Part shown: piece by piece, positions 1,523-46,459 of the stretch
How positions within the stretch are numbered: the first letter of the stretch is position 1
Layout of the letters: the number at the start of each line of letters is the position of its first letter
Sequence record: PP993145.1
From: Escherichia phage phiP4
Direction: 5' to 3' (one strand)
DNA: 64,000 bases
Translations under genes and position numbers: made by a program
The notes under the pieces: model-generated
Databases searched by the model: none
Told to the model about the DNA's origin: nothing
What the model saw: the letters and a program-made list of their open reading frames with translations, nothing else

Positions 1523-1944
1523 TATTGAGTTACCCCATCACTAATATAAACCTTGCCTTCCATAATGCGGAAAGAACTAGTAGCACTACCAACAGCTGTT
1601 CTAGTAATAATTACATCATAGTATCCAGCCAACCTTTGTCTAGGGTTATATCTATCTCTTTCTTTAGATGCTTTGGAAGCAATAGTAGTTACGGCATTAA
1701 CAGGTAGACTTATAGATGCTACTCCTTGATTCGCATCAATAATAGATGTAGTAAAGGATGCTAAAGTTTCAGCTCCATCTTCTAAGCTACTTTTAATACT
1801 TCCTCTAAGAGAGAAGCCAGTAAGATCTACTGGCTTAGATGTAGCAGGATAAACACTATCATCTACATCCATAAATTGCATAAGTAAACCATAAGGTACG
1901 TTCTCATCTACTACTAAATCAATAACTCTATTTTCTGTACTCAT
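1522..1944 (-). CDS. tail collar protein (T5 p132-like), 140 aa
   Basis: 140-aa ORF immediately upstream of tail fibre gene; size and position match T5 p132. Confidence 0.5.
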
Positions 1945-1948
1945 TATT

Positions 1949-4069
1949 TTACCTTATATGGATATACCCGTTTTGCAGGTCTATCTTCATTTTGTAAGAT
2001 CCCTCTGGATTAGAGGATAGTGCTGCTGCACGATCATATATAATATTTACACCAATTTGTGATAAGAAAGCATTATTAGCAACAATTTTACTAGCAGTTA
2101 CCGTACCATTAACTATCATATCACCATGTAAAACCATTGCAGGGCTAGCCCATGCTGAACCATTCCACTGCCTAGTAAACGCTGTTCCTGGTGCCCCACT
2201 TTTATACTCGGTTAATACATCATATTTAACAGGACCAGTACCAAAGTTAGATGTAAAAAACGAATTAGCCTGAGAATCATTCCATGCGGTTAAATTTGCA
2301 ATAGCAAGAGAATACATTCCGGGACCACGTTGTCCATCTGCTCCTGGCCGCCCATCAGCACCTGGTTTTCCATCAGCACCTGGTCTACCATCAGCACCTG
2401 GTCTACCATCAACACCTTCAGTACCACTCCATTGAACTACATCTGACCAACTGGTTCCAGATACTAATTGATTAGTAACAGGGTCCAGAGTACCAGTAGA
2501 GCAGTAAATATTCTGAGTATTAGATGTTCTATTCGGGGGAGTTTTAGACCAACCAGAAGGTGGATATGCAGGGCTTGTTGGTTTAGCAGGTAATGAAGTA
2601 TCTAGAATATAAATAAATACTGTTTGTTTACCTTGTATACCTGTCTCTATATCGATGTCACCGTTAGGTGTGCCAATTACAACCCCACTAGAGATTCTTA
2701 ATGTATCACCATCATAACGAATGTACTGTGTAGCGTTACCAATGTCCAATTTTGGCTTTGCAGTAGCATTATCCATGCCCATCCAAATACCAGATTTTGT
2801 ATCTCCCCAAGTTTTACCCTGAGTATATATTGCTGGATTATCTTGACCAGTCAAATTAGTCATGACAAAGTTCGCAGCATTAATGGTTTTAGTTATTACA
2901 CTTCCATCAACGTTAACTATCTTTTTAATAGGGTCAAAAGATATTGGTGCTTTTCCTTCGGCATCTAGAAGACCTATATTAATAGCACCGGTGGCAGCGT
3001 CTATTAAAAAGGTTTGTTTCCAGGTAGATCCATCTTTAATCTTACCCTTAATATACGCGTAATTTACCTCTATACCAGTTTCGTTAACAAAACTATTATC
3101 TAATGGTGTACTTTCGTTTAGTATAAAGGTCTGTACTGTAGAATCAGTAATACTTTGAGCATCTGGTCCCCAGGCAATAGATGACACTTTAAATTTATGC
3201 TCTACTTTCCATGGGAATGATATAATTGTTGCAGACTGAGCAGCCCCTACGTTGATTTTTTGTGCCTTAGTCCATCCAGTTCTAGCAAATTCTGCTGAAT
3301 CTATATAAGATAGAACGAACTCACGAACGTTAGCACCTGTACCCCTATTCCAATCCCATTGTACACGTAAATCATAACGTTCTTTACCATCAGCTATACG
3401 TGCAGCTTTAAATACAACATTAATAGGGGCTGTAGGAGGTACAAAGTTATATCTAACTTCAAAGACAGTAGGATACTCATAGTATCCAGATGAATCAATA
3501 GTTACTCCATCTGGTAGAGATATTTGTCCAGAAATTCTTACCTTATAGGATCCGATTGGCACACCACCAAACATAATAGTTGGCATCAACGCACCAACGT
3601 AATATTTAACCCACGGATTATTAGCATTAGAATTATTTTTTAATTCTATAGTACAATAATCAGCTTCTCCTGTAGTATCTATATAAACTATTGGCGCTCC
3701 AACACCTACGTCTACAGGCTCTGATTCACATCTAGCACCTGTAATTCTAGGTGCTGACTTCATTTTAAAAGTTTGTTTGTCAGATAGATTAATACCTATC
3801 TGAGCATTAAGTAGTTCAGAGTCTATTATAGAATCATAAAATGCACCCTGAACTTCATAAGTTGTTGTAGGTTTTAGGTTATTAATAGTTACAGAGAAGG
3901 TATCAACTCCAGTAAAATCTCTACGAGTAACGTTGCTACCTTCTTTAAGCCAAAAAGACCTGCCTATAACGTCATAATCAGAATAGATAGAATGCTGGAT
4001 ATACGCCAACGTATATCCAGTTAAGACGCTATTTAGGACCATTTTAGCTGGTGCATTATTTGAAATCAT
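1949..4069 (-). CDS. baseplate/central fibre protein (pb4-like) with collagen-like Gly-X-Y repeats
   Basis: 706-aa ORF downstream of pb3-like gene; [25 protein letters not shown] repeat. Confidence 0.55.
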
Positions 4070-7639: not shown

Positions 7640-10600
7640 TTACATATTACCAAGAGATTTAAGGGTGGATCCATTCTCGTTAAGAGCCAGTTCCACGGCA
7701 TCTCTTAAAGCAGTGCTGTTATTCGATGCAAAATCTCTAAAGCTAGCAGCATCCATTGTGCTAATATTCAGAATGATTGGTCTTCCAGAGGTAGTCTTTG
7801 ATCCATCGGAAAGCTGATCATTAGGTGTGGCTTTCATAGGAACCATAGGAGTTACTACTTCGGTACCGTGCTCACCCATTTGATAGCTAACTCCAGGGTA
7901 CATCATACCACCCTCAGCACGCGGAACAAATGAATTGGCATTACCAATACCCTTATCACCACGTAGGTAGGATAATTCTCCTGAACTAGCTTGCATAGAT
8001 ACATCAATGTTCTTCTGTCGCTCACCTAAAGTTAGGTACTGAGTAGTATCTGCTCCAGAATCTGCAATAGAAGACATACCAGATGCAGAAGATGCTTGAG
8101 CAAGAGCTAAGGCACCTGCCAAACCTGCCGCCACCATCAAAGGAATAGAGAACGGGTATGGTACAGCTGTTGCCGCTTGCATTACTGCTACTGCTGTCTG
8201 GATAATAATTTGTTTCTTAGCTGCATCTTGCTGAATTTTTAACTTTTCAGCTTCTAACTTTTTCAGTTTAGCTTTAGATGCTTCAGATTTACCATCTCGT
8301 TTCTGTTCTGCTGCAATAGCCTGGTCAATCGCACTAACCTGCTGACTAGCACTATACTGAATCACAGAAGATACAGCTTGCATACCTGCTGCGATCGTAG
8401 AAGTAGTATCTAAAGACCCCATGGAGAACTGAATCATAGCATTGGTTAAATTACCCATGCTTTGAGCCACAGCAGTTGCTTCGGAGTTTAGCTCAGATAA
8501 CTTAGAGATTGCCTGATCATAAGAAGCCATTCTATTTCCCATATCAGCAAAATCTTTGTCTTTTCCAGATAGTCCAGTTGTAGGAGTATACACAGCACCT
8601 AAAGAAGACCCAACAGAAGCTTGCATTTGAGCATTACGTTGTGCTGTTAAAGCCGATATCTGAGCCCTTGTCTTGGCTATTTCAGCATTCCAACGCATCT
8701 GCTCATTAGCATTACCCTTAGTAAGTTCCTTCATCTGAGTATAAAAGTCTAACTGCATTTCCATTTTTTGCATTTCCCCTGCCAGAGGGAACATGGAAGT
8801 TAGGGTATTTTCAAAGGCTTCTTGCCTTTTACTGGTCATTTCAGCTTGCTGGTCCTGACGGAATTTCCATATTTCACGTTCAATTTGGGCTTGAGAACGT
8901 CTAGACTGTTCAGCCTCTTTCTGTTTGTCCGCTTGTTTTGTATACCATTCGTACTTCTCTTTTTCAATGGTCAATTCAAGATTTAACTGCGCTAGACGAT
9001 ACTGAGTATCTGTCATAGTACGGTTATTTAAGAGAGCTATCTCACGATCTACACCAAGAATTTTATCTGTGTAATCCTTGACCTTCTTCTGAGCTTCCAT
9101 ACCCTGATTGGTAAGTTTAAGTTTCTCCAGCTGAATTTTTTCAATTTCTTTCTCAACAGCTTTATTTCCCTGGTTTGTTTGAAGAACACGGCGTAAAGCA
9201 GCTTCTTGCTCTTCTAACTGTTGGAGTTCTAAACGCCTACCGGCTTCCTGTGCCTTTTCTTTATCTTTAGTTTGGTTGTATACGTCAGCTATCTTCTGTT
9301 GAACTGCTAACTGGTTCTTAGTCTCATTACCAGTTAGTTTAACGTACTCAGATAAGGCCTGAGACGCAGTTTTCATTTCAGACAGAGTGTTAAACCCTAA
9401 GTTGAGACTTTTAACATACTCATCCGCACTCTTACCAGTTCCTGCGGAGAGAGATTCTACATTTCTAATTACCTCTTCAAAAGTTGCACTAGTTTTAGCA
9501 GCGGTATCTGTACTATTAGCTATATTTTGAAAGTCGTTAGCTAAATCACTAGACGTTTTCTTAGTTTGGTTATATGCTTTTTGTTGCTCTGTCAGACCCT
9601 TTAGAGCAGCAGAATTAAAATCATATACAGCATCTGGGTCATATACATCTTTCTGTAGATTAATCTGTTTCTGGAACTCCGGATTAGCCTTTGCAGCAGC
9701 AGCTCCTGCAGTTTGGAAGGCTGATTTCCAAGCAGTAAGATTCTCTGTAGAATCTTCTACTTCTTTATCTAATCTACTTACTTGTAGTCCCATAGCGGCA
9801 GTTTCTGCTACAAATTGTTTATTAGCTTCCGAAGCACCTGCTGCTGCAAGACCAACAGGAATACCTTCACCAACTTGACGTATAGCTAATTTTGTATAGA
9901 AATCTGCTTGTTCCATTCGTTTATCGAACTCAGATTTTAGCTTATTACGCTTATCAAGAGATTCCTTATACATATCTAGAGCTTTATTATAGCCTTCTTC
10001 AGAAGCAGCCAAACTTAAAGCAACAGCACCAACGTTGGTAGGGTCTATCTGTCTATTAGTTTTTTCTTGAGCTCTAGCTGCTTCAGCAGATACAGAAGCC
10101 TGAGAAGTATAAAATACTGTGTTGATAGCATCAATTACTGGTCCTAAGTACTTAGCAGCAGCTTGTTGTATTGTTCTTAGTGCAGCATCTGCGTTAGCAG
10201 CAAACTGCTCCCACGGAGTAGCACGTAAAACTTCATCTAAGTAACCAAAACGTTTAGTAGATTCTGCTATAACAGCATTAGCATACGCTTGCTGTTTCTG
10301 GAAGGTAGTAAGGCTATTAATATTATATGTTATACCTGTGTTTGCAGCATTTAACTGTTTAACGTAATCAGCATAAGCATCGTTAAGACGAATAGTAACA
10401 CCAAGTTCATCCAGAAGTTCGATTTCTTGTTTAGATACACCCTTAATTACACGGTTAAGTGCATCAGTCATATCAACACCAAGAACAGCAGCAGCACGAC
10501 GAGCTACTAAACCAAATTTATTAAGTTGTTCGGCATCAAATCCATAAGCGGACGCTGAAGATGCCTGTCTCATTGCTTCTTCAAAAGAAATAGCATATCC

Positions 10601-25450: not shown

Positions 25451-25601
25451 TTTGACTTTTGCCAAATTTCATAAGATTACACATGGAGGTGTGTCCAGTG
25501 GCCTCCCGGATGAGAATGAGTCTCATTACCGCCTGGTACTTAGCAAGCTAATAGTCACGATATGCAATGATAACATACCGTGACTATTTCAATTTTAATT
25601 A

Positions 25602-26336
25602 TTACGCGACTTTTAATTTCTCAATATATTGTTGCGGGCTGCAACTATATTCTGCGCGTTCTTCCTCGGTCATACTTTCCCAACATAATTTCAATCGGTC
25701 CGCTAGGAACTGATAATCATTATCATCATCAAGCGATTCATCAATAAAGGTTCCGCCTATCAATGCCACGCCGATTGATAGAATATCATTAACGGCTTGC
25801 GCATCCAGCGTTTTAAATCCGTATGATGCCGCCGCCGCCAATACTCCTTTATGGTCATCAATCATTGTAAAATCAGCGTTCGGGTATAATTGTTTGAATA
25901 GCTCGAAATAATAACTTTTATATACTGCATCCTTGCTGTGGTATATTTCGCTAACCTTATCAGCCGTAAAATATTTGTGAAGTGTATCGCGGGAAAATAC
26001 ACGGATATTGGTATCCCCACGCCCGCGCAATCCTTGTTTGCGTAGGAAGTAATAATCTGACTTGCTCATCAGGCGAGCGGTGCAAATAATGTTTAAAGTA
26101 TTTGCGTCATTCATGCATTGGCGCATATATTCCACCAAAGGCAATAAAGTATCTTGCATTATTAAATGATGCTTGCAAGCCTCGTTTTTGTATTTATTTA
26201 AATCTAAATTCCCGTCGCTATCAAAGCAAGGCGCTACACGATGGAATGAATTAACGATAGTGCCATCAAGATCCCAAATCATGACGCGGGAAATATGCGG
26301 AAAATTACGGGTAATATTCGTTTTAACTTGATTCAT
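25602..26336 (-). CDS. dmp: 5'-deoxyribonucleotidase (HAD family), pre-early
   Basis: HAD motif I WDLDGTIVNS; start chosen at internal Met with GGAG RBS (244 aa); ORF-track start is 26378. Confidence 0.65.
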   Translation of the reverse strand: MNQVKTNITRNFPHISRVMIWDLDGTIVNSFHRVAPCFDSDGNLDLNKYKNEACKHHLIMQDTLLPLVEYMRQCMNDANTLNIICTARLMSKSDYYFLRKQGLRGRGDTNIRVFSRDTLHKYFTADKVSEIYHSKDAVYKSYYFELFKQLYPNADFTMIDDHKGVLAAAASYGFKTLDAQAVNDILSIGVALIGGTFIDESLDDDNDYQFLADRLKLCWESMTEEERAEYSCSPQQYIEKLKVA

Positions 26337-26416
26337 TTTGTTACGTTCTCCAATAAAGGGATCTAGTTTATCCAGCATTGCCCGCTATTTATAAGCGGGC
26401 AATAATAAATCAACTA

Positions 26417-26809
26417 TTAAAGGCCATAAGCCAACGCATCAGCGATAAAACTAATATCCTCGCCAGATACACCGGAACGAATACCAGCACAAGTATATAC
26501 TTTCGCGCTAGATAGCTGATCATCAAAGCAAGCTGGGCAAGGCGCGACAACTGCAAACGCAAGGCCAGCTTTCACGGCGTCGATGATAATCGTTTCCTGC
26601 TTCACCGTATCAACATAAACGCCCGCGGCCTTGATGTGACTACTTGCGCGGCCTTGCGTATAGGCGAAAGTCGTGATCTGTAGCGCCTCATTAAACTCAA
26701 TTAAGTCATCAACAACGTGACCGGCCTCAACGTGATACCGCTCACCATTTGAATAAACCAGAACGATTGAGGACTGAGCGCGATCGAATGGAATATTTTG
26801 CTTTTTCAT
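26417..26809 (-). CDS. cytidine/deoxycytidylate deaminase-like zinc-binding protein, 130 aa
   Basis: H-x-E (YHVEAG) and PCxxC (APCPAC) motifs typical of CDA-fold deaminases. Confidence 0.45.
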   Translation of the reverse strand: MKKQNIPFDRAQSSIVLVYSNGERYHVEAGHVVDDLIEFNEALQITTFAYTQGRASSHIKAAGVYVDTVKQETIIIDAVKAGLAFAVVAPCPACFDDQLSSAKVYTCAGIRSGVSGEDISFIADALAYGL

Positions 26810-26881
26810 ATTTATAAAACTCCAATTAATTTAATAAACTTTTATAGCGGCTATATTTCAAGCCGCTGGGGAATAATTTAA

Positions 26882-28546
26882 TTACGCGAAAAATTTGCCG
26901 TTTTTAAAGTCAATCAAAGTGCGCTGCCCGTTCGCATAGGTAATTAAATGCGTTTGCGTCCAACTTGACGCGCCAACGTTGTAACCCATATCCAGACTAC
27001 CAGCAACGCCAGCGGTATAAACGCCGCCGTAAATGCTGGCGGTGTGGGTGTGCCCCGTGTTTAATTTGCCCAATTTCTTAAACTGCTTCGGATTACCACG
27101 GCTGCCGTTAATGCCGTTGTGACCGTGTACGCCGCATTCAATGCCTGCAATTTTAAATGATTGGTCAGTGGTCAGGAAAATTGCGTTAAACTCGCAACCT
27201 GCGACGTCACGCAGCGCATAATCCAGCACGTTGAAAGTATCGTCATGATTACCGATTGCCGCGTAAATCGCAGCATTAAGGCGGTGATATAGTTCCGCAT
27301 TGGCTGGATCGTCTTTAATGTTAGCATTGCGATCATCAAGCCAACGGGATAACGCCAAATCGTGGTTTGATTCGACAATGATCGTTTGACTAAAATCGCG
27401 CTCCATTGACTCCAGCACGCGCCCGGTATCGATCAGATCATCCAGAACTTTATCACGTCCGGCTGCATACTGTTTCGCTAGGAATACACCAGAGGCGCGA
27501 TTATGATGATTGCGCGATGTAAAATCATGCACGTCATGCACAAACTGATATTTAGGCTTGAGAATATCAAGCAAGCTGTTTTCGCCAGCCCATGACGCTG
27601 CGGCGCACTCCTCATCTAATTTCTCGGCGTGTACGTCGCCATATTGCAAGCCTAAAACATGCCCCGACGTTTCAAAACATCCGGCGGGAGTGGCGCAAAT
27701 ATTCAAATCGTAAAACATGCCGCTTTCGTCCATCGTTTCAAGCTGGCGAACAAAAAATTCCCCGTCCTCGTCGAACTCAACAATCAGCGCACCGTAATTA
27801 TGCAGCGCCTCCGCTTTTTGCCCTGCTTTTTGCTGAATGTAGTTTTTGAGCGTTGCCGTTCCGGTTGAGTACATGCGGCGTACTACTTCACCTTTGAGAG
27901 CTGGCACGCTTTCAGCGGTGATTTTAGCGTGACCAATTGCCAGACCTTCCAGATTAAGCGCGGTTGCAGTTTCAGCAAATCCAGATAGCGGATAATCTGC
28001 CGTTGGCAAAACATTAATTTCAGCCATGAAAGCAAAACGGCGATTGTTTAAAAACACGTTTTTGCTGCAAATATATTTATCAAACGCGGAATCATATTTT
28101 ACACCGTCTGCGCCTTCTCCGTTCTGAAAACCGTTTTTATTATAAATATACTTAGAAACAAGCAAATCAGCGCCGATAAATTTAGCATATTGTTCAAGCG
28201 AGGCTAAAAAGTTTTTATGCGGGAAAGTATTGTTCTGAATTGATGTAATAATAAAGCGTTTGCCCTGTTTTACTTCCCACTGTTCCACCGTGCTGGAAAT
28301 AATTCCAGCCGCCTCGGGGCGCTCGTCGTTTTTAATGGCTTTTGCTACTTTCGCCGCTTTTGGTTTTGCTGGTTTATTTGCTTCCAGCCAATCACAAATC
28401 GCGGTCGAGTGTTTCGTTGTATCGTAGACCGCTTTTGATATATCGTCGCAGACTTCCAGCTTAGTAGCGCGCAGACGTTTACCGTAGAAATTAAAGTCAG
28501 CGGCCAGCTTCAGGATAACGGTTTGTTTTTCTGCGGAAATAATCAT
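26882..28546 (-). CDS. A1: A1 protein (calcineurin-like metallophosphoesterase), pre-early
   Basis: GDVHAE and GNHD metallophosphatase motifs; start set at internal Met with GGAG RBS (ORF track extends to 28636). Confidence 0.6.
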   Translation of the reverse strand: MIISAEKQTVILKLAADFNFYGKRLRATKLEVCDDISKAVYDTTKHSTAICDWLEANKPAKPKAAKVAKAIKNDERPEAAGIISSTVEQWEVKQGKRFIITSIQNNTFPHKNFLASLEQYAKFIGADLLVSKYIYNKNGFQNGEGADGVKYDSAFDKYICSKNVFLNNRRFAFMAEINVLPTADYPLSGFAETATALNLEGLAIGHAKITAESVPALKGEVVRRMYSTGTATLKNYIQQKAGQKAEALHNYGALIVEFDEDGEFFVRQLETMDESGMFYDLNICATPAGCFETSGHVLGLQYGDVHAEKLDEECAAASWAGENSLLDILKPKYQFVHDVHDFTSRNHHNRASGVFLAKQYAAGRDKVLDDLIDTGRVLESMERDFSQTIIVESNHDLALSRWLDDRNANIKDDPANAELYHRLNAAIYAAIGNHDDTFNVLDYALRDVAGCEFNAIFLTTDQSFKIAGIECGVHGHNGINGSRGNPKQFKKLGKLNTGHTHTASIYGGVYTAGVAGSLDMGYNVGASSWTQTHLITYANGQRTLIDFKNGKFFA

Positions 28547-28635
28547 AATAATAAACTCCATTAAAGGGATAAGGTTAATAACGGCAATATTGCCAAATAT
28601 AACGCCTCCAATAATAGGCGTTATAATTTGCAACA

Positions 28636-28881
28636 TTAATTTAAAGGCATCAGGCTAGAACTAACACCACAAACAACGGCGGCAATAAAACAAATCAGGC
28701 CCAAACGCTTCGCTAACTTAGATTTGCGTTTAAAATAATACGAATCTAAATCATTTTGAAAATATGCGAACAATAACGAGGCCGCCATAATAAATAAGCC
28801 TAGAATCAACGATTCAGTAGGGTAAAAGATCATTTTAATAACTCCAGTTAAAGGGAAATTATAGTGGGGAATAATCCCCAC
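28636..28881 (-). CDS. small membrane protein, 81 aa
   Basis: Two predicted TM helices. Confidence 0.4.
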   Translation of the reverse strand: MGIIPHYNFPLTGVIKMIFYPTESLILGLFIMAASLLFAYFQNDLDSYYFKRKSKLAKRLGLICFIAAVVCGVSSSLMPLN

Positions 28882-28890
28882 TATTTAAAT

Positions 28891-29298
28891 TTATTCACCT
28901 GCGGCCTGTTTTACTTCATCGGCAACGCCTAACAACTGCGCCACGGCGTCCAGCGTTTCCAGCTTCGCGCTTTCAAGGCTTGCCAGATCATCGGCGTCCT
29001 TGATAATGCCGGAATCAATAGCGTGTTTTGCAATCACTCGCACGTAATGAGCTTTGCGGATTGAACTACCGCCGCCAACTTTGCGCGGCTTATCGCTTTT
29101 TTGATATGCTTTCGCGCTGGTCAATTTTGAGCGAACTGACACGGGAGAAGCCGCGCCAACTGCTTTCGCAATCTCTTTCAGGCCGTCGCTATTTGCGAAA
29201 TCTAAACCGTTTTCATTGATTAACTGCTGATACATGGTAACAGCTTTTTGGGTGTTTTCTTCGTTCCAAGAAAATTTTGCGGTTTTTGCGTTAGTCAT
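28891..29298 (-). CDS. A2: A2-like pre-early DNA-binding protein, 135 aa
   Basis: Size and position upstream of A1 as in T5; basic C-terminal region. Confidence 0.45.
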   Translation of the reverse strand: MTNAKTAKFSWNEENTQKAVTMYQQLINENGLDFANSDGLKEIAKAVGAASPVSVRSKLTSAKAYQKSDKPRKVGGGSSIRKAHYVRVIAKHAIDSGIIKDADDLASLESAKLETLDAVAQLLGVADEVKQAAGE

Positions 29299-29398
29299 GG
29301 TAAAAACTCCAATTAATTTAATTTAAGGGATTAAATGATTAACTAATGTTAATCGTTATATGCCCCGAACTACTGGGGCATATAAAGTTAACACTATA

Positions 29399-29650
29399 TT
29401 ATAAAACGGCTTCCCATTTTTCGTTACGTTGAACAACCTTTACAACGTCGCCGGATTTAACGCGAACGCTAAAAACGGTTTTTCCGTTGTTACTGCGCTC
29501 ATTTTCAGCGTATACCGCGTCGATTGTATCAAACGGCATAAGCGCCGCGCCTTTAATACGTTCGGCTTTTCCGGTTAATTCATCCGTTTTAGTAACGAAA
29601 GGAATAAAAACAGATTGACCAATTTTCGGCGCGGTAATAACGTTTTGCAT
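29399..29650 (-). CDS. hypothetical protein, 83 aa
   Basis: ORF with upstream RBS. Confidence 0.4.
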   Translation of the reverse strand: MQNVITAPKIGQSVFIPFVTKTDELTGKAERIKGAALMPFDTIDAVYAENERSNNGKTVFSVRVKSGDVVKVVQRNEKWEAVL

Positions 29651-29883
29651 AATATAAACTCCAGTTTATTTGATGGATTGTTCCGCATTATCTGCTAGAA
29701 AATACTAGCAGATAATAAGAAGAAATCCGCTCGCCATTATAAAATCAATTTAAGGAACTCCACGCGGGCCGCTATATCCCAGTTAGGGGGCGGGATGCAT
29801 TATGGTAAGCACCGACCGTCAAATTGTATCAAGTTATCGCTCTTATCGAACTGGGTACATCTTAAAGCCTATCGGCTAGGTTG

Positions 29884-30087
29884 TCAAACTATTTTTTGCA
29901 GTTTTTTATGATTTTCCTTCAGGTCGATCATAATATTTCGCCAGATCATTTCTAGTCCTTGCTGGCGGCCTTTCTTGTACTGCTCAAATCGATATTTTAC
30001 CGATCTTTGCGCTACTGTCAATAAATTTTTTGTTTTGCTATCCAGTGCCTTGCTAGGTTTACCAGTGATCAATAAAGTTTGTTTCAT
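29884..30087 (-). CDS. hypothetical basic protein, 67 aa, bracketed by 17-bp inverted repeats
   Basis: ORF flanked by tcttaaagcctatcggc (29855-29871) and its reverse complement (30118-30134). Confidence 0.3.
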   Translation of the reverse strand: MKQTLLITGKPSKALDSKTKNLLTVAQRSVKYRFEQYKKGRQQGLEMIWRNIMIDLKENHKKLQKIV

Positions 30088-30780
30088 ATCGTCGATTCCT
30101 TATAATGAATAAGTTTACCGCCGATAGGCTTTAAGATATACCCAATTTTTAAAGAGCGCGGCGGTAAACTCCCCGCCGTGTAGTTCGTCATTGCCGCCCT
30201 ACGAGATAAATAATAACAAACAACGAAAAAGGCGCAACCTTATATTTGTAAAGAAATGTAAAGACAAACGCCACCGGACACCGTGCGGCGACCTGGGCGC
30301 GGCGCATTAAAATTAAAAGAAACGGGCGCGCGAATACCACAAAACACAGCAGATAGGCAAGTAATTTTTTCATTTATATTTGCTTTGCCCTACTTGACAA
30401 AATCTAAAAAGCTCGTGGCAGCGATAAACGGCTTATCCCCTTATGATGGGATGGCTAAAAACTTTATTGCGTTCTGGGGCGTTTTAGGCCGCCTATTTTC
30501 GACTTAACAAATCATTAACAAACGCAAAATTGAAAAATAGTTGGAAAAGGTCTTGACTTTTAAAAATCAAGATCAAATGACTTATTTTATAAAATAAATT
30601 AATTGACTTTTATTTGTTAGTATGCATCGGAAAGATAGCAGACTATTAATCACTAGAAGGATGATCATGCTGGTGGATTGTAACGGCCTGAATTATTAGC
30701 AGACTATTAATCACGGAAAAACTCATTAGCCAACTAACTATTTCATGATATATAATATACTTATAAATTAATGAGAAATA

Positions 30781-30863
30781 ATAACTATAAGAAATCATCA
30801 CCATTATAATAATAACTATAAGAAATCATCACCATTATAATAATAACTATAAGAAACTATCGG
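30781..30863. repeat. 31-bp tandem direct repeat, about 2.7 copies
   Basis: ataactataagaaatcatcaccattataata repeated head-to-tail. Confidence 0.8.
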
Positions 30864-30890
30864 CATAAGTGAGAACCACTATCATTTAAG

Positions 30891-30998
30891 TTATCCACAA
30901 TGTTATCCACAGCACAAAATAATTTGACACGATAGGCGGCGATATAAGGGCTTATCCACAGACTTATCCACAGGTTATCCTACTGTATAAATATACAG
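30891..30998. promoter_or_regulatory. DnaA-box cluster (4-5 TTATCCACA-like boxes) including left 40-bp inverted repeat arm (30959-30998)
   Basis: ttatccaca, gttatccacag, cttatccacag x2, ggttatcct read directly. Confidence 0.7.
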
Positions 30999-31263
30999 GG
31001 TAAAAAGGCAGTGTTAACGACTGCAATCAATTTTAAGCGGCCTAAAACGCTTTCTAACGAGCTAAACGCTGTGGGGTAATATTAAAGTAAAGACCCAACG
31101 CGGTGCCCTGGTGGCTTCGCCGTGTTTTGCTCTTTACCGTACCGCTGCGCGGTTATCATAAAAATAGGCGTTAGGCAAGGAAAATAAAAAAGTAAAATAA
31201 TCTTTGCCTATGCTAGAAAATTACCCTTATCATTTACTCACCGATTAACGAGAGGGCCAACAA

Positions 31264-32256
31264 ATGAGGCTATATAAACCAGATAACGCAACCGTCTTAA
31301 AAGGTGCGCTGCGTAACCTGCTGGATGGTAGCAGAACAACCAGCATCCGGCATTTTGTTTTCAATATTGAAACTATTCATCAAAACTTTTTTGATGAATA
31401 TGACGCTTATAATATGAATAGTTTTCTACCGTTATATAAACAAGGGGCAACGCTTGTTTTGTATAATCAGGATTATCAATTGCTCACTAGTCGGGGGCCG
31501 GATACTGATTTCATAATCGTAAAAGGCAACACAGTAAAAGCCTATGATACTGGGGCGGGCTTAGAAGTTTTTTCAATAGAAAACTATGAGGCTAATGATA
31601 ATGATCTTTATGACGTAGAAAATTTTCTTGATTCATTTTGGCGTTATTTATCAGTTGGCTGGAATCGGTCGGATTCTGATGGGTATCGTTTTGCGGCTAT
31701 AATGGCCTTCGATGATAACGGTAATTTTTTGCTACCGTCGGAACTATGCCCGTATGTTTATAATGATCTGATACAGGAGGCCGGTTTTACTTTCTGGAAA
31801 GATGAGGATCAGATTATTAACAGTATAGAAAAACATGCTGTAAATTCTAACACTCAAAGCGTTATCACTCAAACTACTGAAAATAAAGGAAAAAACACTA
31901 TGACCAAGATCGCTAACATCGTTGCCGCCAATAAGTCTGCCGTTGTAAACGCTGCAAAACTGGAAGCGGGTAAAATTGCACTAACTCAAATCACGAAAGT
32001 AGCGGCTAAAAAAGCACCGTTCATGATCAAAGGTTATATCGATACGCCGATTGGTCGCGTAGTAATCGCTAACCTGCTGAGTGTAGCGGTTGACCAGTAC
32101 GCCCCGAGTAACCAGAAAGCGAAAGCGGTAGCGGGGGCGGCTATGGAAGCGGCAATGTTGGAAATGGTGCAAAGTTTTAACATCGCTGAGATGATCGATG
32201 AAATGGTAAAAGGTATCGATATTTCTACTTTTACCAATAACACCGAAAACGAGTAA
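31264..32256 (+). CDS. hypothetical protein, 330 aa
   Basis: First gene of plus-strand cassette between the inverted repeats; no recognisable motif. Confidence 0.45.
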   Translation: MRLYKPDNATVLKGALRNLLDGSRTTSIRHFVFNIETIHQNFFDEYDAYNMNSFLPLYKQGATLVLYNQDYQLLTSRGPDTDFIIVKGNTVKAYDTGAGLEVFSIENYEANDNDLYDVENFLDSFWRYLSVGWNRSDSDGYRFAAIMAFDDNGNFLLPSELCPYVYNDLIQEAGFTFWKDEDQIINSIEKHAVNSNTQSVITQTTENKGKNTMTKIANIVAANKSAVVNAAKLEAGKIALTQITKVAAKKAPFMIKGYIDTPIGRVVIANLLSVAVDQYAPSNQKAKAVAGAAMEAAMLEMVQSFNIAEMIDEMVKGIDISTFTNNTENE

Positions 32257-32377
32257 TAACTAGCCCATTGTAAAGTTTTGTAAAGGCCGCCTTTTATGGT
32301 GGCCTTTTTTGTTATAATGCCTTTACACCGTTTGAGGACGGTTGAAAATTTTCCCAAAAAATTTTGGAGGCTTAAAA

Positions 32378-32607
32378 TGGTTGCTTTTTCTTCTTCTGAC
32401 GCTCTTTTCACTGGAAAAGGCTGGGTATCAAATCGCTGGATTATTCAGGAAATGGTGCAAGAGTACGGCATTGCTAAAACTTATACTACCATTCAGGCGC
32501 TTTATGATAATGATCAAATCGATCAGCAAACGGCGGGCTTTTTACTGGATACCCTGAAGGCGGAACACTGTACCAAAAAACAAGCCGCTAAAATTGTTTT
32601 AATGTAA
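32378..32607 (+). CDS. hypothetical protein, 76 aa
   Basis: Start set at Met preceded by GGAGG RBS (ORF-track start 32296). Confidence 0.4.
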
Positions 32608-32656
32608 TTAATAACGGGGCGAAAGTATCGCCCCACTAACTAGGGGAGTATCACAA

Positions 32657-32839
32657 ATGATTATTTTTCGAGCTTTTTTAGCGGGTATCTTGGGAGCTAT
32701 TTTGACCCTTTTCGCCACCGCTTACGGTATTCAGGATTCCTATTGCGGTTTGGTAAACACAAAACCTATGGTTACTATAGGCGCTGGTATCGCTGTATTT
32801 TCTTATCTGCTGGGCTGCATGAATAGTAAAGGAGAATAA
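32657..32839 (+). CDS. small membrane protein, 60 aa
   Basis: Two hydrophobic segments, RBS present. Confidence 0.4.
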   Translation: MIIFRAFLAGILGAILTLFATAYGIQDSYCGLVNTKPMVTIGAGIAVFSYLLGCMNSKGE

Positions 32840-32841
32840 AA

Positions 32842-33054
32842 ATGATCCGCAACGTTTCTCTTGCACGTTCGAAAGGTTTTAAGCTGGTGGACGCTAACAC
32901 GTTCGAGCGTCCAGATTGCAAGATCGAATATGTAGCACGTAATAAAAATGCCTTTCGTGTTACCGAGAAAAAATTTGATAAGCGCGGCAACGTGATCCTT
33001 GAAACGGTTAGGCACTTTGCCACCTTTTACGCTGCATTTCGTGGGGTACTATGA
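32842..33054 (+). CDS. hypothetical protein, 70 aa
   Basis: RBS AAGGAG upstream. Confidence 0.4.
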   Translation: MIRNVSLARSKGFKLVDANTFERPDCKIEYVARNKNAFRVTEKKFDKRGNVILETVRHFATFYAAFRGVL

Positions 33055-33290
33055 AAAGCGTTATTGTTGTTATCCTTGCAATGGCTGGCGGTTTTATCGC
33101 CACCTTATTTAAGAATGATCCCACTTCGTTGGGTATCTTTATGCTTTTATCGGGCTATCTGATCGGGAGGTTGTCAAATGATAGCGCAAATTAAAACGGC
33201 TTTTCGTTTTTGGGGCGTCCTGCCTTCAATTGGTTTTATTCTGATAATCATTAGTCAGCTAATGATTATCGTTGGCGTTATCTGGGAGCT

Positions 33291-33641
33291 ATGCAAATGA
33301 TCATTTACGAGGGCAATCGCTTTGTTGCTAATTGCCGCCCGGCATTGTTAGCAAACTATTTAAACCAGCTTTCACCAGCTTATAAGGGCGTTATTAATAT
33401 TTACGAGGGCAAGGCGCATTATAAAATCAATGCGGTCGTTGCCCGTGAACTAGCGTTTCAATTTTTAACCTTTGCATCTTGCGACGTTCAGGTTATGGGT
33501 GAGGCGTTAATTGCAGAAAATGAAGACGATTTTATTAATATTTTCCGTAAGGTATGCACCGAGCGCCTGATAATCAAAGGCGCATATATTCAATCCACGG
33601 CTGATAGTATTGAAACAGCGTTTCGAAAGGTGGCGCAATGA
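33291..33641 (+). CDS. hypothetical protein, 116 aa
   Basis: ORF; last sizeable gene of plus-strand cassette. Confidence 0.4.
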   Translation: MQMIIYEGNRFVANCRPALLANYLNQLSPAYKGVINIYEGKAHYKINAVVARELAFQFLTFASCDVQVMGEALIAENEDDFINIFRKVCTERLIIKGAYIQSTADSIETAFRKVAQ

Positions 33642-33793
33642 AACGATGGTTTAATCACTGGTACAAGCGGTTTTTAGTACGCCGTCGCAAGTCTAGGCAT
33701 CAAGATGAGTGGCGGGAGTGGGCAAAGCGTAACGGTTGCCCACTAATATAATAATCACGGGGCGCAACTATCAGGGAGTGCCCCCAATTTTCA

Positions 33794-34370
33794 AATGATA
33801 ATCATTCTCATTTGACCGCGCCCGCGATGGTTAGCCTGCTAATGGTTCGGGTGTTACGTGTCGCCTTGTGTGATCGTTAGCTCGCTAACTAATTTTCAAG
33901 CCTCCTCCAATTTTGCCCTTGTTTTAGTATCCCCACCAAAATTAAACGCGTTAGAATGCGTTTGAGAGCGTTTTAACGCTATATTAGAATTATTCGCTGC
34001 GTAGGAATACTGTATATTTATCCAGTAGGATAAGCTGTGGATAAGTCTGTTAATAACGCCTCAAAATGGCTAGGGTTTTGTCAAGTCAAATCGTGCTGTT
34101 AATAAGTCTGTGGATAACTTAAATAACAGTGTTTCTCACTTCCGTTCTTAAATGAGAATCATTATCATTTGTATTTCACTATCTAACTAATAATCATTCC
34201 ACTATCTAACTAATAATCATTCCACTTTCTAAATGAGAATCATTCCGCTTTTTAAATGAGAATCATTTCACTTTTTAAATGAGATTGATTCTCATTTCAC
34301 TTTCTAAATGCGAATTATTATCATTCTCATTCCGCTTTTTAAATGAGAATGATTCTTATTATCATTCGTA
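33794..34370. promoter_or_regulatory. array of at least 7 Fur-box-like AT-rich palindromes (AAATGAGAATCATT family)
   Basis: 33794-33814 aaatgataatcattctcattt matches 16/19 of GATAATGATAATCATTATC; 34148-34166 matches 15/19; further copies 34231-34366. Confidence 0.45.
34010..34049. repeat. right 40-bp inverted repeat arm with DnaA boxes (partner of 30959-30998)
   Basis: Reverse complement equals left arm with 3 mismatches; extra tgtggataac box at 34103-34112. Confidence 0.75.
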
Positions 34371-34374
34371 TTTA

Positions 34375-34396
34375 GCGCAGAGCAATTGCTCTGCGC
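34375..34396. repeat. perfect 22-bp palindrome gcgcagagcaattgctctgcgc
   Basis: Read directly. Confidence 0.85.
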
Positions 34397-34400
34397 TTTT

Positions 34401-35000
34401 GTGCAAATCCGACATTGCTCCACGGGTGTTACGTGCGGGCGTGTATGTGCGAATCCGACAATTTTTGGTAGTGTGCAAATCCGACCCGAAAAATTTTTAT
34501 AGTGTGCAAATCCGACAATGAATTTTCCTAAAAACTCCAGCAATCCGATGCTGCGCATCAATCCTGTGGAATTAGCTAGAGTATGTGCAAATCCGACATG
34601 GGTTTATTTGTGCGAATCCGACAAGATTTTTGTGACTTCGATTGGAGGGTGTGTGATTGTGTGGGTTTGGGGAGAAGTTGAGAGAGCGAGAGAAAATAAG
34701 AGGAGAAGCTAGAGGGGCAGCAGTGGTGGCGTGCAACGCCTGATTTGCTGCGTTTTTGGGGAGAGTTGAAAAGATTTGGGTTAATTTGAGATTAGTGGAG
34801 ATAAAGTAAAATTTTATTAGCAAAATGGGGCAAAATAGCTTGACAAGTGAAAATTTCTGTGGCTCTAAAAACTCAGGCAATCACGGGCCTTCGGCCCGAA
34901 ATAATGCTGCCATTTTCAGGAGATTATATGTTCCTAAAAACTTAGGCAATTGTGCAAATCCGACCATAAATTTCTAGAAACACAATGTGCAAATCCGACA
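34401..35000. repeat. eight dispersed copies of GTGC(A/G)AATCCGAC(A/C) motif plus AACCGCC and ttcctaaaaac repeats; injection-stop-signal-like noncoding region
   Basis: Copies at 34401, 34447, 34473, 34503, 34585, 34610, 34953, 34987. Confidence 0.75.
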
Positions 35001-35473
35001 GTAATTTCTGGAAATGTGTTTTCAAAAAATGTCTCCTAGAAATAACCGCCCTCCCCATAACCGCCCTGTATTAAACCGCCTAGTATATGTTCCTAGAAAC
35101 TTGGGAGAACCGCCCACTAGAAGCGTGAGATCTCGTGAGTATTTCGTGAGAACTCTGGAGTTTCTAGGAAAGTGTTGTGCCATCCTAGCAGATGAGCGGC
35201 AACCGGTGTATCATCTTGAATGTAAATTATGTGGTCAAAAGTTTTACCTTTAATTTAAGTATAAGATCCCCCAAGATTGGAAGAGATGCTCCACCCCTGG
35301 GATACGAATTGCGTGAGATGGTACAAAACTTCTTAAGATTTCCCTAGTCCTTCGACAAGCTACGGGGGAAATAGAAGTTTCCCATCCACCATCCGTATCC
35401 GGGTGGATCTCTTTATTCTATGTTATTTCATAGAGTTATTATAACATGCAGAAATCATAACGTCAAGTAGAGT

Positions 35474-45706: not shown

Positions 45707-46459
45707 TTATCCAACTAGTGGTTCTAGCTCTAAGTCACAGAAGTTATAAACTTCTAGTTTAAGGTTATTGATACCATCGAATTTATTAACTAATTCGTGA
45801 GTAATATATTTTGCAGGAATACCACTTTCAGATGGATGATCTGATTTAATAGTGAACTTCTGCTCAGCGGGCACTACATTTACTATCAAAGAATCCATAT
45901 CTAAATGGTTTGTTTCTCTGAGTAACTCTCCTTCATTGGGGAATCTAACATCTGTTATTACGGCGACATCTGGGTCGTCTTTAGCGATGGATTGCTCCAG
46001 AATTATGAGCCAAATGCGTTCATGCACCAGCTGCCTTCCTAGCTCTGTCCCTACGAGCTGTAACATTTTTCTCGGAGAAATAAATAAACTATAAAGTCCG
46101 TCTTCTTTATTCTCTGAGATAAGTTGTTGAGGATTAAGGTATTTTTCCTCAAAAATAGGCCAAACGTACGAGAAGTCTTCAAACTTATCGATACCGTACT
46201 TAAACCATACATCTCTGGCTCGCTCCAATTGAGATTGTGTGACCGTAAACCATTGGTCAATCTCTTTTCCTCTGCGCTCTCCTAGAAACTCTGGAGTTAC
46301 ACCGAGGATTACGGATGCAAGTTCATAAACTGGCTTAGCAAAACTATAACGACGAGAAAAACACGTTGGATACGTGTCATTACACCAATCGATAATTAAT
46401 TTTGCAACGGTATCTTTTCCCGAACCAGCTTCACCATGTAAACCGACTAATACTGACAT
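45707..46459 (-). CDS. deoxynucleoside monophosphate kinase, 250 aa
   Basis: P-loop GEAGSGKDT; size matches T5 dNMP kinase. Confidence 0.65.
   Translation of the reverse strand: MSVLVGLHGEAGSGKDTVAKLIIDWCNDTYPTCFSRRYSFAKPVYELASVILGVTPEFLGERRGKEIDQWFTVTQSQLERARDVWFKYGIDKFEDFSYVWPIFEEKYLNPQQLISENKEDGLYSLFISPRKMLQLVGTELGRQLVHERIWLIILEQSIAKDDPDVAVITDVRFPNEGELLRETNHLDMDSLIVNVVPAEQKFTIKSDHPSESGIPAKYITHELVNKFDGINNLKLEVYNFCDLELEPLVG

What the first reader, a model, noticed from the sequence alone, without database searches (positions are those of the whole stretch)
34375..35120. Eight copies of GTGCAAATCCGACA plus a 22-bp perfect palindrome: injection-stop-like protein-binding region
The repeated 14-mer occurs in both perfect and one-mismatch forms at irregular spacing, together with AACCGCC repeats and ttcctaaaaac repeats, all noncoding and at the right edge of the presumed terminal repeat. 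In T5 this position corresponds to the injection stop signal region. The specific 14-mer is a good candidate recognition site for A1/A2 or a host protein.
Basis: partly seen in the sequence, partly recalled or inferred. Interest (0 to 1): 0.55.

Follow-up and report, generated by a model that had tools for sequence, protein, structure and literature searches.

The report
T5 "direct repeat D" array
The eight 14-base repeats are real, but they are the already-annotated "direct repeat D" array beside the end of the terminal repeat of T5-like phages; no one knows which protein binds them, and the phage's A2 DNA-transfer protein is a reasonable, directly testable candidate.

Summary
Eight same-strand copies of GTGCAAATCCGACA (four exact, four with one mismatch; 0.33 expected by chance) and a 22-24-bp perfect palindrome lie in a ~1.7-kb stretch with no credible gene.

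The window is a T5-like phage. The copies have the same spacing as "direct repeat D" (DRD) copies 1-8 in the T5 GenBank record. The palindrome is T5 "palindrome J" and carries the 7.9% nick site.

Transferring the T5 terminal-repeat (TR) end places it at window 34865|34866. Copies 1-6 are therefore inside the repeat and copies 7-8 outside it.

The two-cluster layout around the repeat end recurs in Klebsiella, Pectobacterium, Pantoea, Vibrio and Aeromonas relatives. The motif drifts half-site by half-site in some lineages and is lost in a Proteus phage. The neighbouring DnaA boxes stay constant, which argues for a co-evolving, phage-encoded binder.

The predicted A2 fold is a Myb/GcrA-like helix-turn-helix, which suits an asymmetric site. 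I favour an A2 landing array at the boundary between first-step transfer (FST) and second-step transfer (SST) of the DNA, at about 0.3. The main rivals are a packaging signal and origin iterons.

The element is already known and its function is unresolved. Interest is moderate to low.

The parts
34374..34397 (.). 24-bp perfect palindrome AGCGCAGAGCAATTGCTCTGCGCT (22-bp core at 34375-34396) followed by TTTT. It is the homologue of T5 'palindrome J' and has the shape of an intrinsic terminator for the rightward pre-early operon.
   Evidence: maps to T5 9650-9666; hairpin -22.3 kcal/mol, z -5.3.
34389..34396 (-). Homologue of the T5 'major single-stranded nick 1, 7.9%' site. The minus strand reads A/GCGCAGA against the consensus R/GCGCRGG. 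A GTTACGTGCG element lies 31 nt downstream, as at the four T5 nick sites.
   Evidence: consensus from PMC3517423.
34401..34414 (+). DRD copy 1 (exact)
   Evidence: equals T5 DRD copy 1.
34447..34460 (+). DRD copy 2 (GTGCGAATCCGACA)
34473..34486 (+). DRD copy 3 (GTGCAAATCCGACC)
34504..34517 (+). DRD copy 4 (exact)
34585..34598 (+). DRD copy 5 (exact)
34610..34623 (+). DRD copy 6 (GTGCGAATCCGACA); the last copy inside the terminal repeat.
34640..34830 (+). Purine/G-rich tract between the two DRD clusters (GC skew up to +0.63). The equivalent tract is present in every relative examined.
34840..34865 (+). Conserved TTGACAAGTGAAAATTTCTGTGGCTC block ending at the predicted right end of the terminal repeat (34865|34866, ...GTGGCTC|TAAAAAC). 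This stretch is what BLAST aligns to the Klebsiella Sugarlandvirus records listed (window 34799-34871).
34952..34965 (+). DRD copy 7 (GTGCAAATCCGACC), outside the terminal repeat.
34987..35000 (+). DRD copy 8 (exact), outside the terminal repeat.
35044..35114 (+). Four AACCGCC(C) repeats. The same motif follows DRD cluster 2 in the Sugarlandvirus, My1, Pantoea and Aeromonas relatives; in the Proteus phage a single copy lies just upstream of the TTGACA block.
34036..34117 (-). Upstream context: two pairs of DnaA/DnaA* boxes 3 bp apart (TGTGGATAAgtcTGTTAATAA and TGTTAATAAgtcTGTGGATAA). This is T5 IRD'-spacer-IRC', Davison's preferred iss candidate.
   Evidence: bioRxiv 10.1101/866236
34140..34372 (.). 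Upstream context: AT-rich (27-30% GC) tandem and palindromic AAATGAGAATCATT repeats (T5 DRC/DRE, palindromes E-I). The estimated T5 FST shear point maps to 34348.
25494..34865 (+). Inferred single collapsed copy of the ~9.37-kb terminal repeat (dmp, A1, A2 and other pre-early genes). The left end is inferred from the T5 and NBSal003 genome ends.

Best explanation
The eight 14-mers are the 'direct repeat D' (DRD) iterons of T5-like phages: an array of recognition sites for one sequence-specific, phage-encoded DNA-binding protein. They form two same-strand clusters that bracket the right end of the terminal repeat, immediately downstream of the point where first-step DNA transfer halts.

The binder I consider most likely is the pre-early protein A2, acting with membrane-bound A1. 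A2 is made from the first 8% of the genome. It would load onto the DRD copies, which are the very next DNA to enter, and so capture or ratchet the stalled DNA and restart second-step transfer.

Shown here: the repeats exist; they are homologous to T5 DRD copies 1-8; their position relative to the nick site, the shear point and the repeat end; their conservation and half-site drift across the family; and the predicted helix-turn-helix fold of A2.

Inferred, not shown: that any protein binds them, that the protein is A2, and that binding restarts transfer. The adjacent palindrome is a separate element. It is terminator-shaped and carries the 7.9% nick site.
For: 1. Identity with T5 DRD. Start-to-start spacings are 46, 26, 31, 81, 25, 342, 35 in the window and 46, 26, 31, 81, 25, 344, 35 in T5.

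2. Selection on the motif itself.
- Among 15 close relatives the DRD columns are 97% conserved, against 84% for the other columns of 34375-35120.
- In relatives whose flanks no longer align, the motif and the two-cluster layout persist: Klebsiella IME260 5+6 copies, Pectobacterium My1 6+3, Pantoea AAS21 5+3, Vibrio Achelous about 7+2.
- All 49 sites collected from six of the lineages lie on one strand.

3. The binder is probably phage-encoded and bipartite.
- In Aeromonas AhSzw-1 the right half ATYCGAYA is kept and the left half changes to GTACTT/GTAGAA.
- In Vibrio 70E34-1a the left half ATGTGCGAA is kept and the right half changes.
- In the Proteus phage the array is gone.
- The host-specified DnaA boxes stay canonical in all of these lineages.

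4. A2 as the candidate.
- It is an experimentally shown dsDNA-binding dimer required for second-step transfer, and it associates with A1 (bioRxiv 10.1101/866236).
- It is conserved in every lineage examined.

5. Position. DRD1 starts 53 bp beyond the mapped shear point and 5 bp beyond the nick motif.
Against: - There is no binding data of any kind.
- A2's helix SVRxKL is equally conserved in the Proteus phage, which has lost the array, and in lineages with altered half-sites. I could establish no residue-level covariation.
- If the shear point marks the cell surface, DRD1-6 sit in the tail tube at arrest and are out of reach of a cytoplasmic protein until the DNA moves.
- The conserved bracketing of the repeat end by two clusters, kept even where the motif sequence changed, is not explained by an entry function. 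A packaging signal explains it better.
- The estimate of the stop position (7.9%) is imprecise.
Confidence: 0.3

Rival explanations
1. Packaging or terminus-generation signal. The two DRD clusters are binding sites for the small terminase subunit (or another packaging protein) and bracket the site where the right end of the terminal repeat is cut. This resembles the hexamers flanking the P1 pac cut or the R sites of lambda cosB. The left end is ejected first, so the right end should be packaged first, which would put DRD1-6 on the first-packaged end.
For: - The recorded right ends of T5, EscoHU1, L6jm, DT571/2 and My1 all fall at the homologous spot, 26-28 bp after the conserved TTGACA block, between the two clusters.
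- The bracket (cluster 1, purine-rich tract, TTGACA block, cluster 2) is retained in Sugarlandvirus, My1, Pantoea, Vibrio Achelous and Aeromonas, even where the motif sequence has changed.
- 'Last in, first out' is general knowledge of tailed phages, not a T5 result.
Against: - The distance from the clusters to the cut varies widely: 135-351 bp on the left and 87-247 bp on the right.
- No DRD lies near the left boundary of the repeat, which must also be cut.
- The TTGACA block itself is the best-conserved piece and could suffice as the signal.
- Some records place the end elsewhere: chee24 at -206, Kenya-K37 at -29, IME260 at +21.
- The T5 small terminase subunit and its target are unknown.
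- The Proteus phage keeps the TTGACA block but not the array.
Confidence: 0.25
2. Iterons of a replication origin located in the terminal repeat. Host DnaA boxes, an AT-rich repeat block and direct iterons lie in the classical order, and the initiator would be a phage protein such as the UL9-like D2 helicase ('origin binding protein').
For: - The module order is DnaA-box pairs (34036-34117), a 27-30% GC repeat block (34140-34372), then 6 direct iterons.
- Davison notes the resemblance to oriC (bioRxiv 10.1101/866236).
- D2 is proposed as a replication initiator and resembles UL9 (PMC3632103).
- The DRD core GTGCGAA resembles the reverse complement of HSV UL9 box I. That comparison is from my memory and was not tested.
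Against: - The similarity of D2 to UL9 covers only the helicase core (aa 389-533), not the UL9 DNA-binding domain.
- The D2 N-terminal domain is 63% identical in the Proteus phage, which lacks the array.
- Iteron spacings (15-81 bp) show no helical phasing.
- No initiator gene is adjacent.
- Electron-microscopy studies reported multiple internal origins (cited in PMC3632103).
- Copies 7-8 lie beyond a G-rich, not AT-rich, tract.
Confidence: 0.15
3. The array is itself part of the injection stop. A host protein, or a protein packaged in the virion, bound to the DRD copies jams the DNA in the channel or at the portal until A1/A2 relieve the block.
For: - DRD1-6 lie within the iss feature of AY543070 and within measurement error of the 7.9-8.3% stop.
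- From memory, the T5 tail holds roughly 0.7 kb of DNA. That would put cluster 2 and the repeat end near the portal when ~9.6 kb is inside the cell.
Against: - The mapped shear point is to the left of all copies, and Davison assigns the iss to the DnaA-box/DRE block.
- The motif drifts between lineages while the host-read DnaA boxes do not, which argues against a conserved host factor.
- From memory, DNA ejection from T5 in vitro goes to completion without A1/A2.
- No known E. coli regulator consensus that I could recall matches the 14-mer.
Confidence: 0.1

Closest known systems
T5 'direct repeat D' copies 1-9 in Repeat Region 3 of the left terminal repeat (GenBank AY587007, Wang et al. 2005; Davison, bioRxiv 10.1101/866236)
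   Same: Same 15-mer, same strand and same inter-copy spacing for copies 1-8. The flanking elements match too: palindrome J with the nick site, DRC/DRE repeats, DnaA-box inverted repeat and AACCGCC repeats. The array straddles the repeat end in the same way.
   Different: The window lacks T5 copy 9, which lies in a T5-specific segment, and copy 10, found 1.8 kb downstream in T5 and many relatives. Its palindrome is a longer perfect 24-mer. Its nick motif deviates by one base (AGCGCAGA).
P1 pac site and lambda cosB (terminase recognition repeats flanking or adjoining the cut)
   Same: Short repeated motifs in two groups either side of a defined genome-end cut.
   Different: The distances to the cut are longer and vary between relatives. 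All copies are in one orientation. No terminase binding is known, and there is no equivalent at the other repeat boundary.
Iteron-type plasmid origins (P1 oriR/incA, RK2 oriV, pSC101)
   Same: DnaA boxes, an AT-rich block and clustered direct iterons, with a second iteron cluster at a distance.
   Different: The iterons are 14-15 bp with irregular, unphased spacing. There is no adjacent rep gene and no evidence of origin activity.
R1 parC-type centromere (two sets of direct iterons flanking a promoter core)
   Same: Two clusters of same-strand iterons bracket a TTGACA-containing core.
   Different: This is a lytic phage with no partition system. The -10 match is weak, and the core coincides with the physical genome end.

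Membership tests
T5 direct repeat D (DRD) array | 15-mer TGTGCRAATCCGACM, all copies on the same strand | tested here: met
T5 direct repeat D (DRD) array | Copy order and spacing as in T5 copies 1-8 | tested here: met
   Spacings are 46, 26, 31, 81, 25, 342, 35 in the window and 46, 26, 31, 81, 25, 344, 35 in T5.
T5 direct repeat D (DRD) array | Lies in the untranslated region after the DnaA-box inverted repeat, the DRC/DRE repeats and palindrome J with the nick site, and straddles the LTR end | tested here: met
   Alignment and coordinate transfer; no credible ORF.
Injection stop signal (iss) in the strict sense | Located at or to the left of the first-step shear point (T5 ~9618) | tested here: not met
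   The shear point maps to window 34348, and all DRD copies start at 34401 or later. The 7.9% estimate is imprecise, so this is a weak negative.
Injection stop signal (iss) in the strict sense | Falls within the region annotated as iss in a T5 record | tested here: met
   The AY543070 iss feature is 9140-10149, and that record's coordinates run +80 relative to AY587007. It covers copies 1-6 but not 7-8.
Injection stop signal (iss) in the strict sense | Cis-acting arrest of DNA transfer | not testable with these tools
   Needs phage genetics and a blender or qPCR entry assay.
Terminase recognition site (pac/cosB-like) | Adjacent to the physical genome end | tested here: met
   The copies lie 242-464 bp to the left and 87-135 bp to the right of the inferred end at 34865|34866.
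Terminase recognition site (pac/cosB-like) | Fixed geometry relative to the cut across relatives | tested here: not met
   The left distance varies from 135 to 351 bp and the right distance from 87 to 247 bp.
Terminase recognition site (pac/cosB-like) | Bound by the small terminase subunit | not testable with these tools
   The T5 small subunit and its site are not defined.
Iteron-type replication origin | DnaA boxes and an AT-rich unwinding block next to direct iterons | tested here: met
Iteron-type replication origin | Regular, helically phased iteron spacing and an adjacent initiator gene | tested here: not met
   Spacings range from 15 to 81 bp and are unphased. There is no rep-like gene nearby. 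D2 matches UL9 only in the helicase core.
Rho-independent terminator (palindrome only) | GC-rich hairpin followed by a U run | tested here: met
   A 10-bp stem of -22.3 kcal/mol, z -5.3, followed by UUUUGU. The simple terminator scan did not list it.
T5 major nick site | R/GCGCRGG on the nicked strand at the homologous position | tested here: inconclusive
   The window has A/GCGCAGA, a 6-of-7 match, at the position of T5 nick 1. The nick itself cannot be seen in sequence.

The most novel reading that the evidence does not exclude
The DRD array is the long-sought specific DNA target of the T5 A2 protein. A2 would be a bipartite Myb-like reader whose two domains contact the two independently evolving half-sites, GTGCRA and ATCCGAC. 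Its loading on the copies flanking the terminal-repeat end would be the step that converts the stalled first-step complex into second-step transfer. A more radical version is that the same uncut 'end' module acts both as the packaging signal and as the injection stop, which would explain why the first-step DNA is almost exactly one terminal repeat long.
Probability: 0.25. Interest if true: 0.6.

Novelty: already known. Interest (0 to 1): 0.3.

Why it matters
Two-step DNA injection by T5 has lacked a mechanism for more than 50 years. Neither the stop signal nor the DNA target of A1/A2 is known. The DRD array is the most over-represented asymmetric motif at the boundary. It is conserved from E. 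coli phages to Vibrio phages, and it drifts in the way expected of the site of a co-evolving phage protein. That makes a cheap, decisive experiment possible: A2, D2 or terminase binding to DRD oligonucleotides. The repeats themselves have been annotated since 2005, so the finding adds a new instance and a sharper hypothesis, not a new kind of element.

Tried and rejected
1. DRD as part of the nickase recognition site. Rejected. T5 nicks 2 and 3 have no DRD nearby, and nick 4 is 362 bp from copies 11-12. DRD1 merely sits in the spacer of a bipartite nick motif.

2. DRD as the target of the UL9-like D2 'origin binding protein', on the basis of GTGCGAA resembling UL9 box I. Downgraded. The Pfam and PDB matches cover only the helicase core. 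The Proteus phage keeps a 63%-identical D2 N-terminal domain but has no array.

3. T5 DRD copies 11-12 inside the D13 (SbcC-like) gene as a conserved second site. Rejected. They are absent from My1 D13, so they are lineage-specific.

4. A structured RNA. There is no Rfam match above gathering score; the best hit is 26.5 bits against a cut-off of 100.

5. Residue-level covariation between A2 and motif variants. No clean pattern emerged.

6. A known host regulator site (CRP, LexA, PhoB, FadR, LacI-family half-sites). None fits, but this rests on recall only and was not tested against a database.

7. A Foldseek search of the A2 model against the PDB gave nothing significant.

8. The literature search found no experimental assignment of a function to DRD, and no defined terminase site or origin for T5.

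9. Vibrio phage Quinn bases 1-3000 were fetched to read a repeat end, but the record is circularly permuted and was uninformative.

Full report
**What is in the window**

A search for GTGCAAATCCGACA with up to two mismatches returns exactly eight sites, all on the + strand and all between 34401 and 35000. Four are exact and four have one mismatch. Shuffles expect 0.33 sites, and none of 100 shuffles reaches eight. Each copy is preceded by T, so the unit is TGTGCRAATCCGACM.

Immediately upstream, GCGCAGAGCAATTGCTCTGCGC is a perfect 22-bp palindrome at 34375-34396. It extends to 24 bp at 34374-34397 and is followed by TTTT. As RNA it forms a 10-bp hairpin of -22.3 kcal/mol, z = -5.3.

The four AACCGCC copies (35044-35114) and the CCTAAAAAC-type repeats are also present. 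Between 33752 and 35473 there are only short overlapping ORFs on both strands.

**What the region is**

The stretch 33900-35300 matches 450 phage records by megablast (515 by the more sensitive blastn of 34375-35120), mostly Salmonella and Escherichia T5-like phages, at 80-96% identity. The window is therefore a member of the Demerecviridae close to T5.

T5 record AY587007 annotates 'direct repeat D copy 1-9' at 9672, 9718, 9744, 9775, 9856, 9881, 10225, 10260 and 10397. It also annotates 'palindrome J' (9650-9666) and 'major single-stranded nick 1, 7.9%' (9661-9668) just before copy 1, and the LTR end at 10139. The window's start-to-start spacings (46, 26, 31, 81, 25, 342, 35) reproduce T5 copies 1-8, and a three-way alignment confirms base-by-base homology.

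Transferring coordinates through that alignment gives:
- Palindrome J maps to 34377-34394.
- The nick motif maps to 34389-34396. The minus strand reads A/GCGCAGA, against the consensus R/GCGCRGG quoted in PMC3517423.
- The estimated first-step shear point (T5 9618) maps to 34348.
- The LTR end maps to 34865|34866, in ...TTGACAAGTGAAAATTTCTGTGGCTC|TAAAAACTC.

Davison's analysis (bioRxiv 10.1101/866236) describes this 'Repeat Region 3' as conserved among T5-like phages. It lists the nine DRD copies but assigns them no function. [quoted passage not shown] The other T5 record, AY543070, labels a broader interval as 'iss', 9140-10149 in coordinates shifted by +80. That interval contains copies 1-6.

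**The terminal repeat in this window**

The recorded right genome ends of T5, EscoHU1 and L6jm fall at the same position, and DT571/2 ends one base further. My1, which is very divergent, ends at the homologous spot 28 bp after its TTGACA block. Three records differ: chee24 at -206, Kenya-K37 at -29 and IME260 at +21.

The left ends of T5 and NBSal003 map to window 25493/25494. The window therefore carries one collapsed copy of a ~9.37-kb terminal repeat, 25494-34865. DRD copies 1-6 lie 242-464 bp inside its right end, and copies 7-8 lie 87-135 bp outside it. No DRD lies near the left boundary or anywhere else in the 64 kb.

**Comparative evidence**

Among 15 close relatives the DRD columns are 97% conserved, against 84% for the remaining columns of the finding. 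Much of the region is highly conserved at that distance, so the informative comparisons are the distant ones.

| Lineage | DRD motif | Copies (cluster 1 + cluster 2) |
|---|---|---|
| Klebsiella Sugarlandvirus IME260 | ATGTGCAAATCCGAYA | 5 + 6, around the TTGACA block |
| Pectobacterium My1 | canonical | 6 + 3, spacings 17/27/17/27/45 |
| Pantoea AAS21 | canonical | 5 + 3 |
| Vibrio phage Achelous (A1 only 31% identical) | GGTGCRAATYCGAY | about 7 + 2 |
| Aeromonas AhSzw-1 | right half ATYCGAYA kept; left half becomes GTACTT/GTAGAA | 4 + 3 |
| Vibrio 70E34-1a | left half ATGTGCGAA kept; right half changes | 6, in one cluster |
| Proteus M4H10_20 | one degenerate copy beside the GCGC motif | 1; a tandem array of an unrelated 20-mer (about ten copies) occupies the cluster-2 position |

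In the Aeromonas phage the two clusters still bracket the homologous block even though the motif has changed. Across six of these lineages, all 49 collected sites are on one strand.

The same module order recurs throughout:
1. A CTGTATA...TATACAG palindrome with DnaA boxes.
2. AT-rich tandem or palindromic repeats.
3. A GCGC nick-like motif.
4. DRD cluster 1.
5. A purine-rich tract.
6. The TTGACA block and the repeat end.
7. DRD cluster 2.
8. AACCGCCC repeats.

The DnaA boxes, which are read by a host protein, stay canonical in all lineages. The DRD halves drift independently. That is the behaviour expected of the site of a co-evolving, phage-encoded, bipartite binder rather than of a conserved host factor.

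**Candidate binders**

A2 is a dsDNA-binding dimer that associates with membrane-bound A1 and is required for second-step transfer. Homologues exist in every lineage examined: 65% identity in Klebsiella phages, 39-43% in Vibrio, about 40% in Proteus and 33% in Aeromonas.

I could not establish residue-level covariation. The SVRxKL helix is invariant even where the motif changes or is lost.

The D2 helicase, annotated as 'origin binding protein', matches herpesvirus UL9 only over the helicase core. Its N-terminal domain is 63% identical in the Proteus phage, which lacks the array. D2 is therefore a weaker candidate.

**Mechanism**

I commit, at about 0.3, to the DRD array being the landing site of A2 (A1-A2) on the DNA that enters next after the first-step stop, and to its serving to capture or ratchet the stalled DNA and restart transfer.

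The strongest rival, at about 0.25, is a packaging role. The only established property of the central block is that it is the physical genome end, and two clusters of direct repeats bracket it in six lineages. Against this, the distances to the cut are variable and the left boundary has no DRD.

An iteron origin (about 0.15) fits the order of DnaA boxes, AT-rich block and iterons. It lacks helical phasing, an adjacent initiator gene and any mapping data.

A literal 'stopper' role (about 0.1) is disfavoured by the position to the right of the shear point and by the drift of the motif.

The palindrome is a separate element. It is a terminator-shaped hairpin that also carries the nick site.

**Novelty and score**

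The repeats, the palindrome and their conservation in T5-like phages are already in GenBank annotation and in the literature. This window is one more orthologous instance.

What this analysis adds, and which may be new:
- The family-wide two-cluster bracket around the repeat end.
- The independent drift of the half-sites, and the loss of the array in Novosibvirus.
- The Myb/GcrA-like prediction for A2.

These sharpen an old, testable hypothesis but prove nothing. Interest is 0.3.

Noticed in passing
window 34389-34436 and 46270-46316; T5 loci L003, L132, L131: All four unique T5 major nick sites share CCCTGCGC (nick 4: CCCGCGCC), then 28-31 nt, then RTTACRNRTG. The window has the same bipartite pattern at the homologues of nick 1 (34389) and nick 2 (46270), and the Proteus phage has it too. 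This may be the 'additional sequence' that PMC3517423 argued the T5 nicking system needs.
   Followed up: partly
window 35044-35114; T5 left end (L006 bases ~33-48); window 25520-25535: AACCGCC(C) repeats follow DRD cluster 2 in most lineages examined, and the motif is still present in the Proteus and Aeromonas phages, where DRD is lost or altered. An (A/T)ACCGCC also lies about 35 nt inside the left genome end of T5, NBSal003 and the window. This motif is a candidate end-related signal.
   Followed up: partly
window 34840-34872: The terminal-repeat end falls inside the -10 region of a promoter-like element (TTGACA, 17 nt, TCTAAA). The element would be complete only at the LTR/unique junction or in concatemers, and truncated in the right repeat. 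CTAAAAACT-type copies recur at 34528, 34934 and 35092, with an inverted copy at 35160.
   Followed up: no
window 35180-35280: A non-coding block that is 96-98% conserved among relatives, between a possible rightward promoter (34840) and a terminator-like hairpin (35389-35406, + strand). It could be a ~0.5-kb non-coding RNA. Rfam has no match.
   Followed up: no
T5 AY587007 79019-79048 (L131) and nine T5-like IMG/VR loci: Two tandem DRD-like copies (GTGCAAATCCTACAG GTGCAAATCCGACA) lie inside the coiled-coil part of the D13/SbcC-like gene, 362 bp from major nick 4. They are absent from My1 D13, so they are lineage-specific. The region lies outside this window.
   Followed up: yes
T5 12073 (L132) and several relatives (for example L120 at 2364): An extra DRD copy (T5 'copy 10') lies about 1.8 kb to the right of copy 8, inside an early ORF, in T5 and many relatives. 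It is absent from this window at <=2 mismatches.
   Followed up: partly
window 34150-34372, 33800-33813, 25508-25528: The AAATGAGAATCATT / AATGATTCTCATT palindromic repeats look like Fur boxes (GATAATGATAATCATTATC, from memory). A related GATGAGAATGAGTCTCATT sits about 15 nt inside the left genome end.
   Followed up: no
window 30891-30972 and 34036-34117: Eight DnaA/DnaA* boxes in four pairs, each pair 3 bp apart. Four consensus TTATCCACA boxes lie in the Repeat Region 2 homologue. In the Repeat Region 3 homologue there are two consensus boxes (TGTGGATAA) and two variant boxes (TGTTAATAA). This is exactly as Davison describes for T5-like phages.
   Followed up: yes
L135 (Proteus phage M4H10_20), reverse complement of about 3330-3470: A tandem array of AATAGAATGGTGRGGAAT 20-mers (about ten copies) occupies the position where other lineages have DRD cluster 2. 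This may be a replacement binding array.
   Followed up: no
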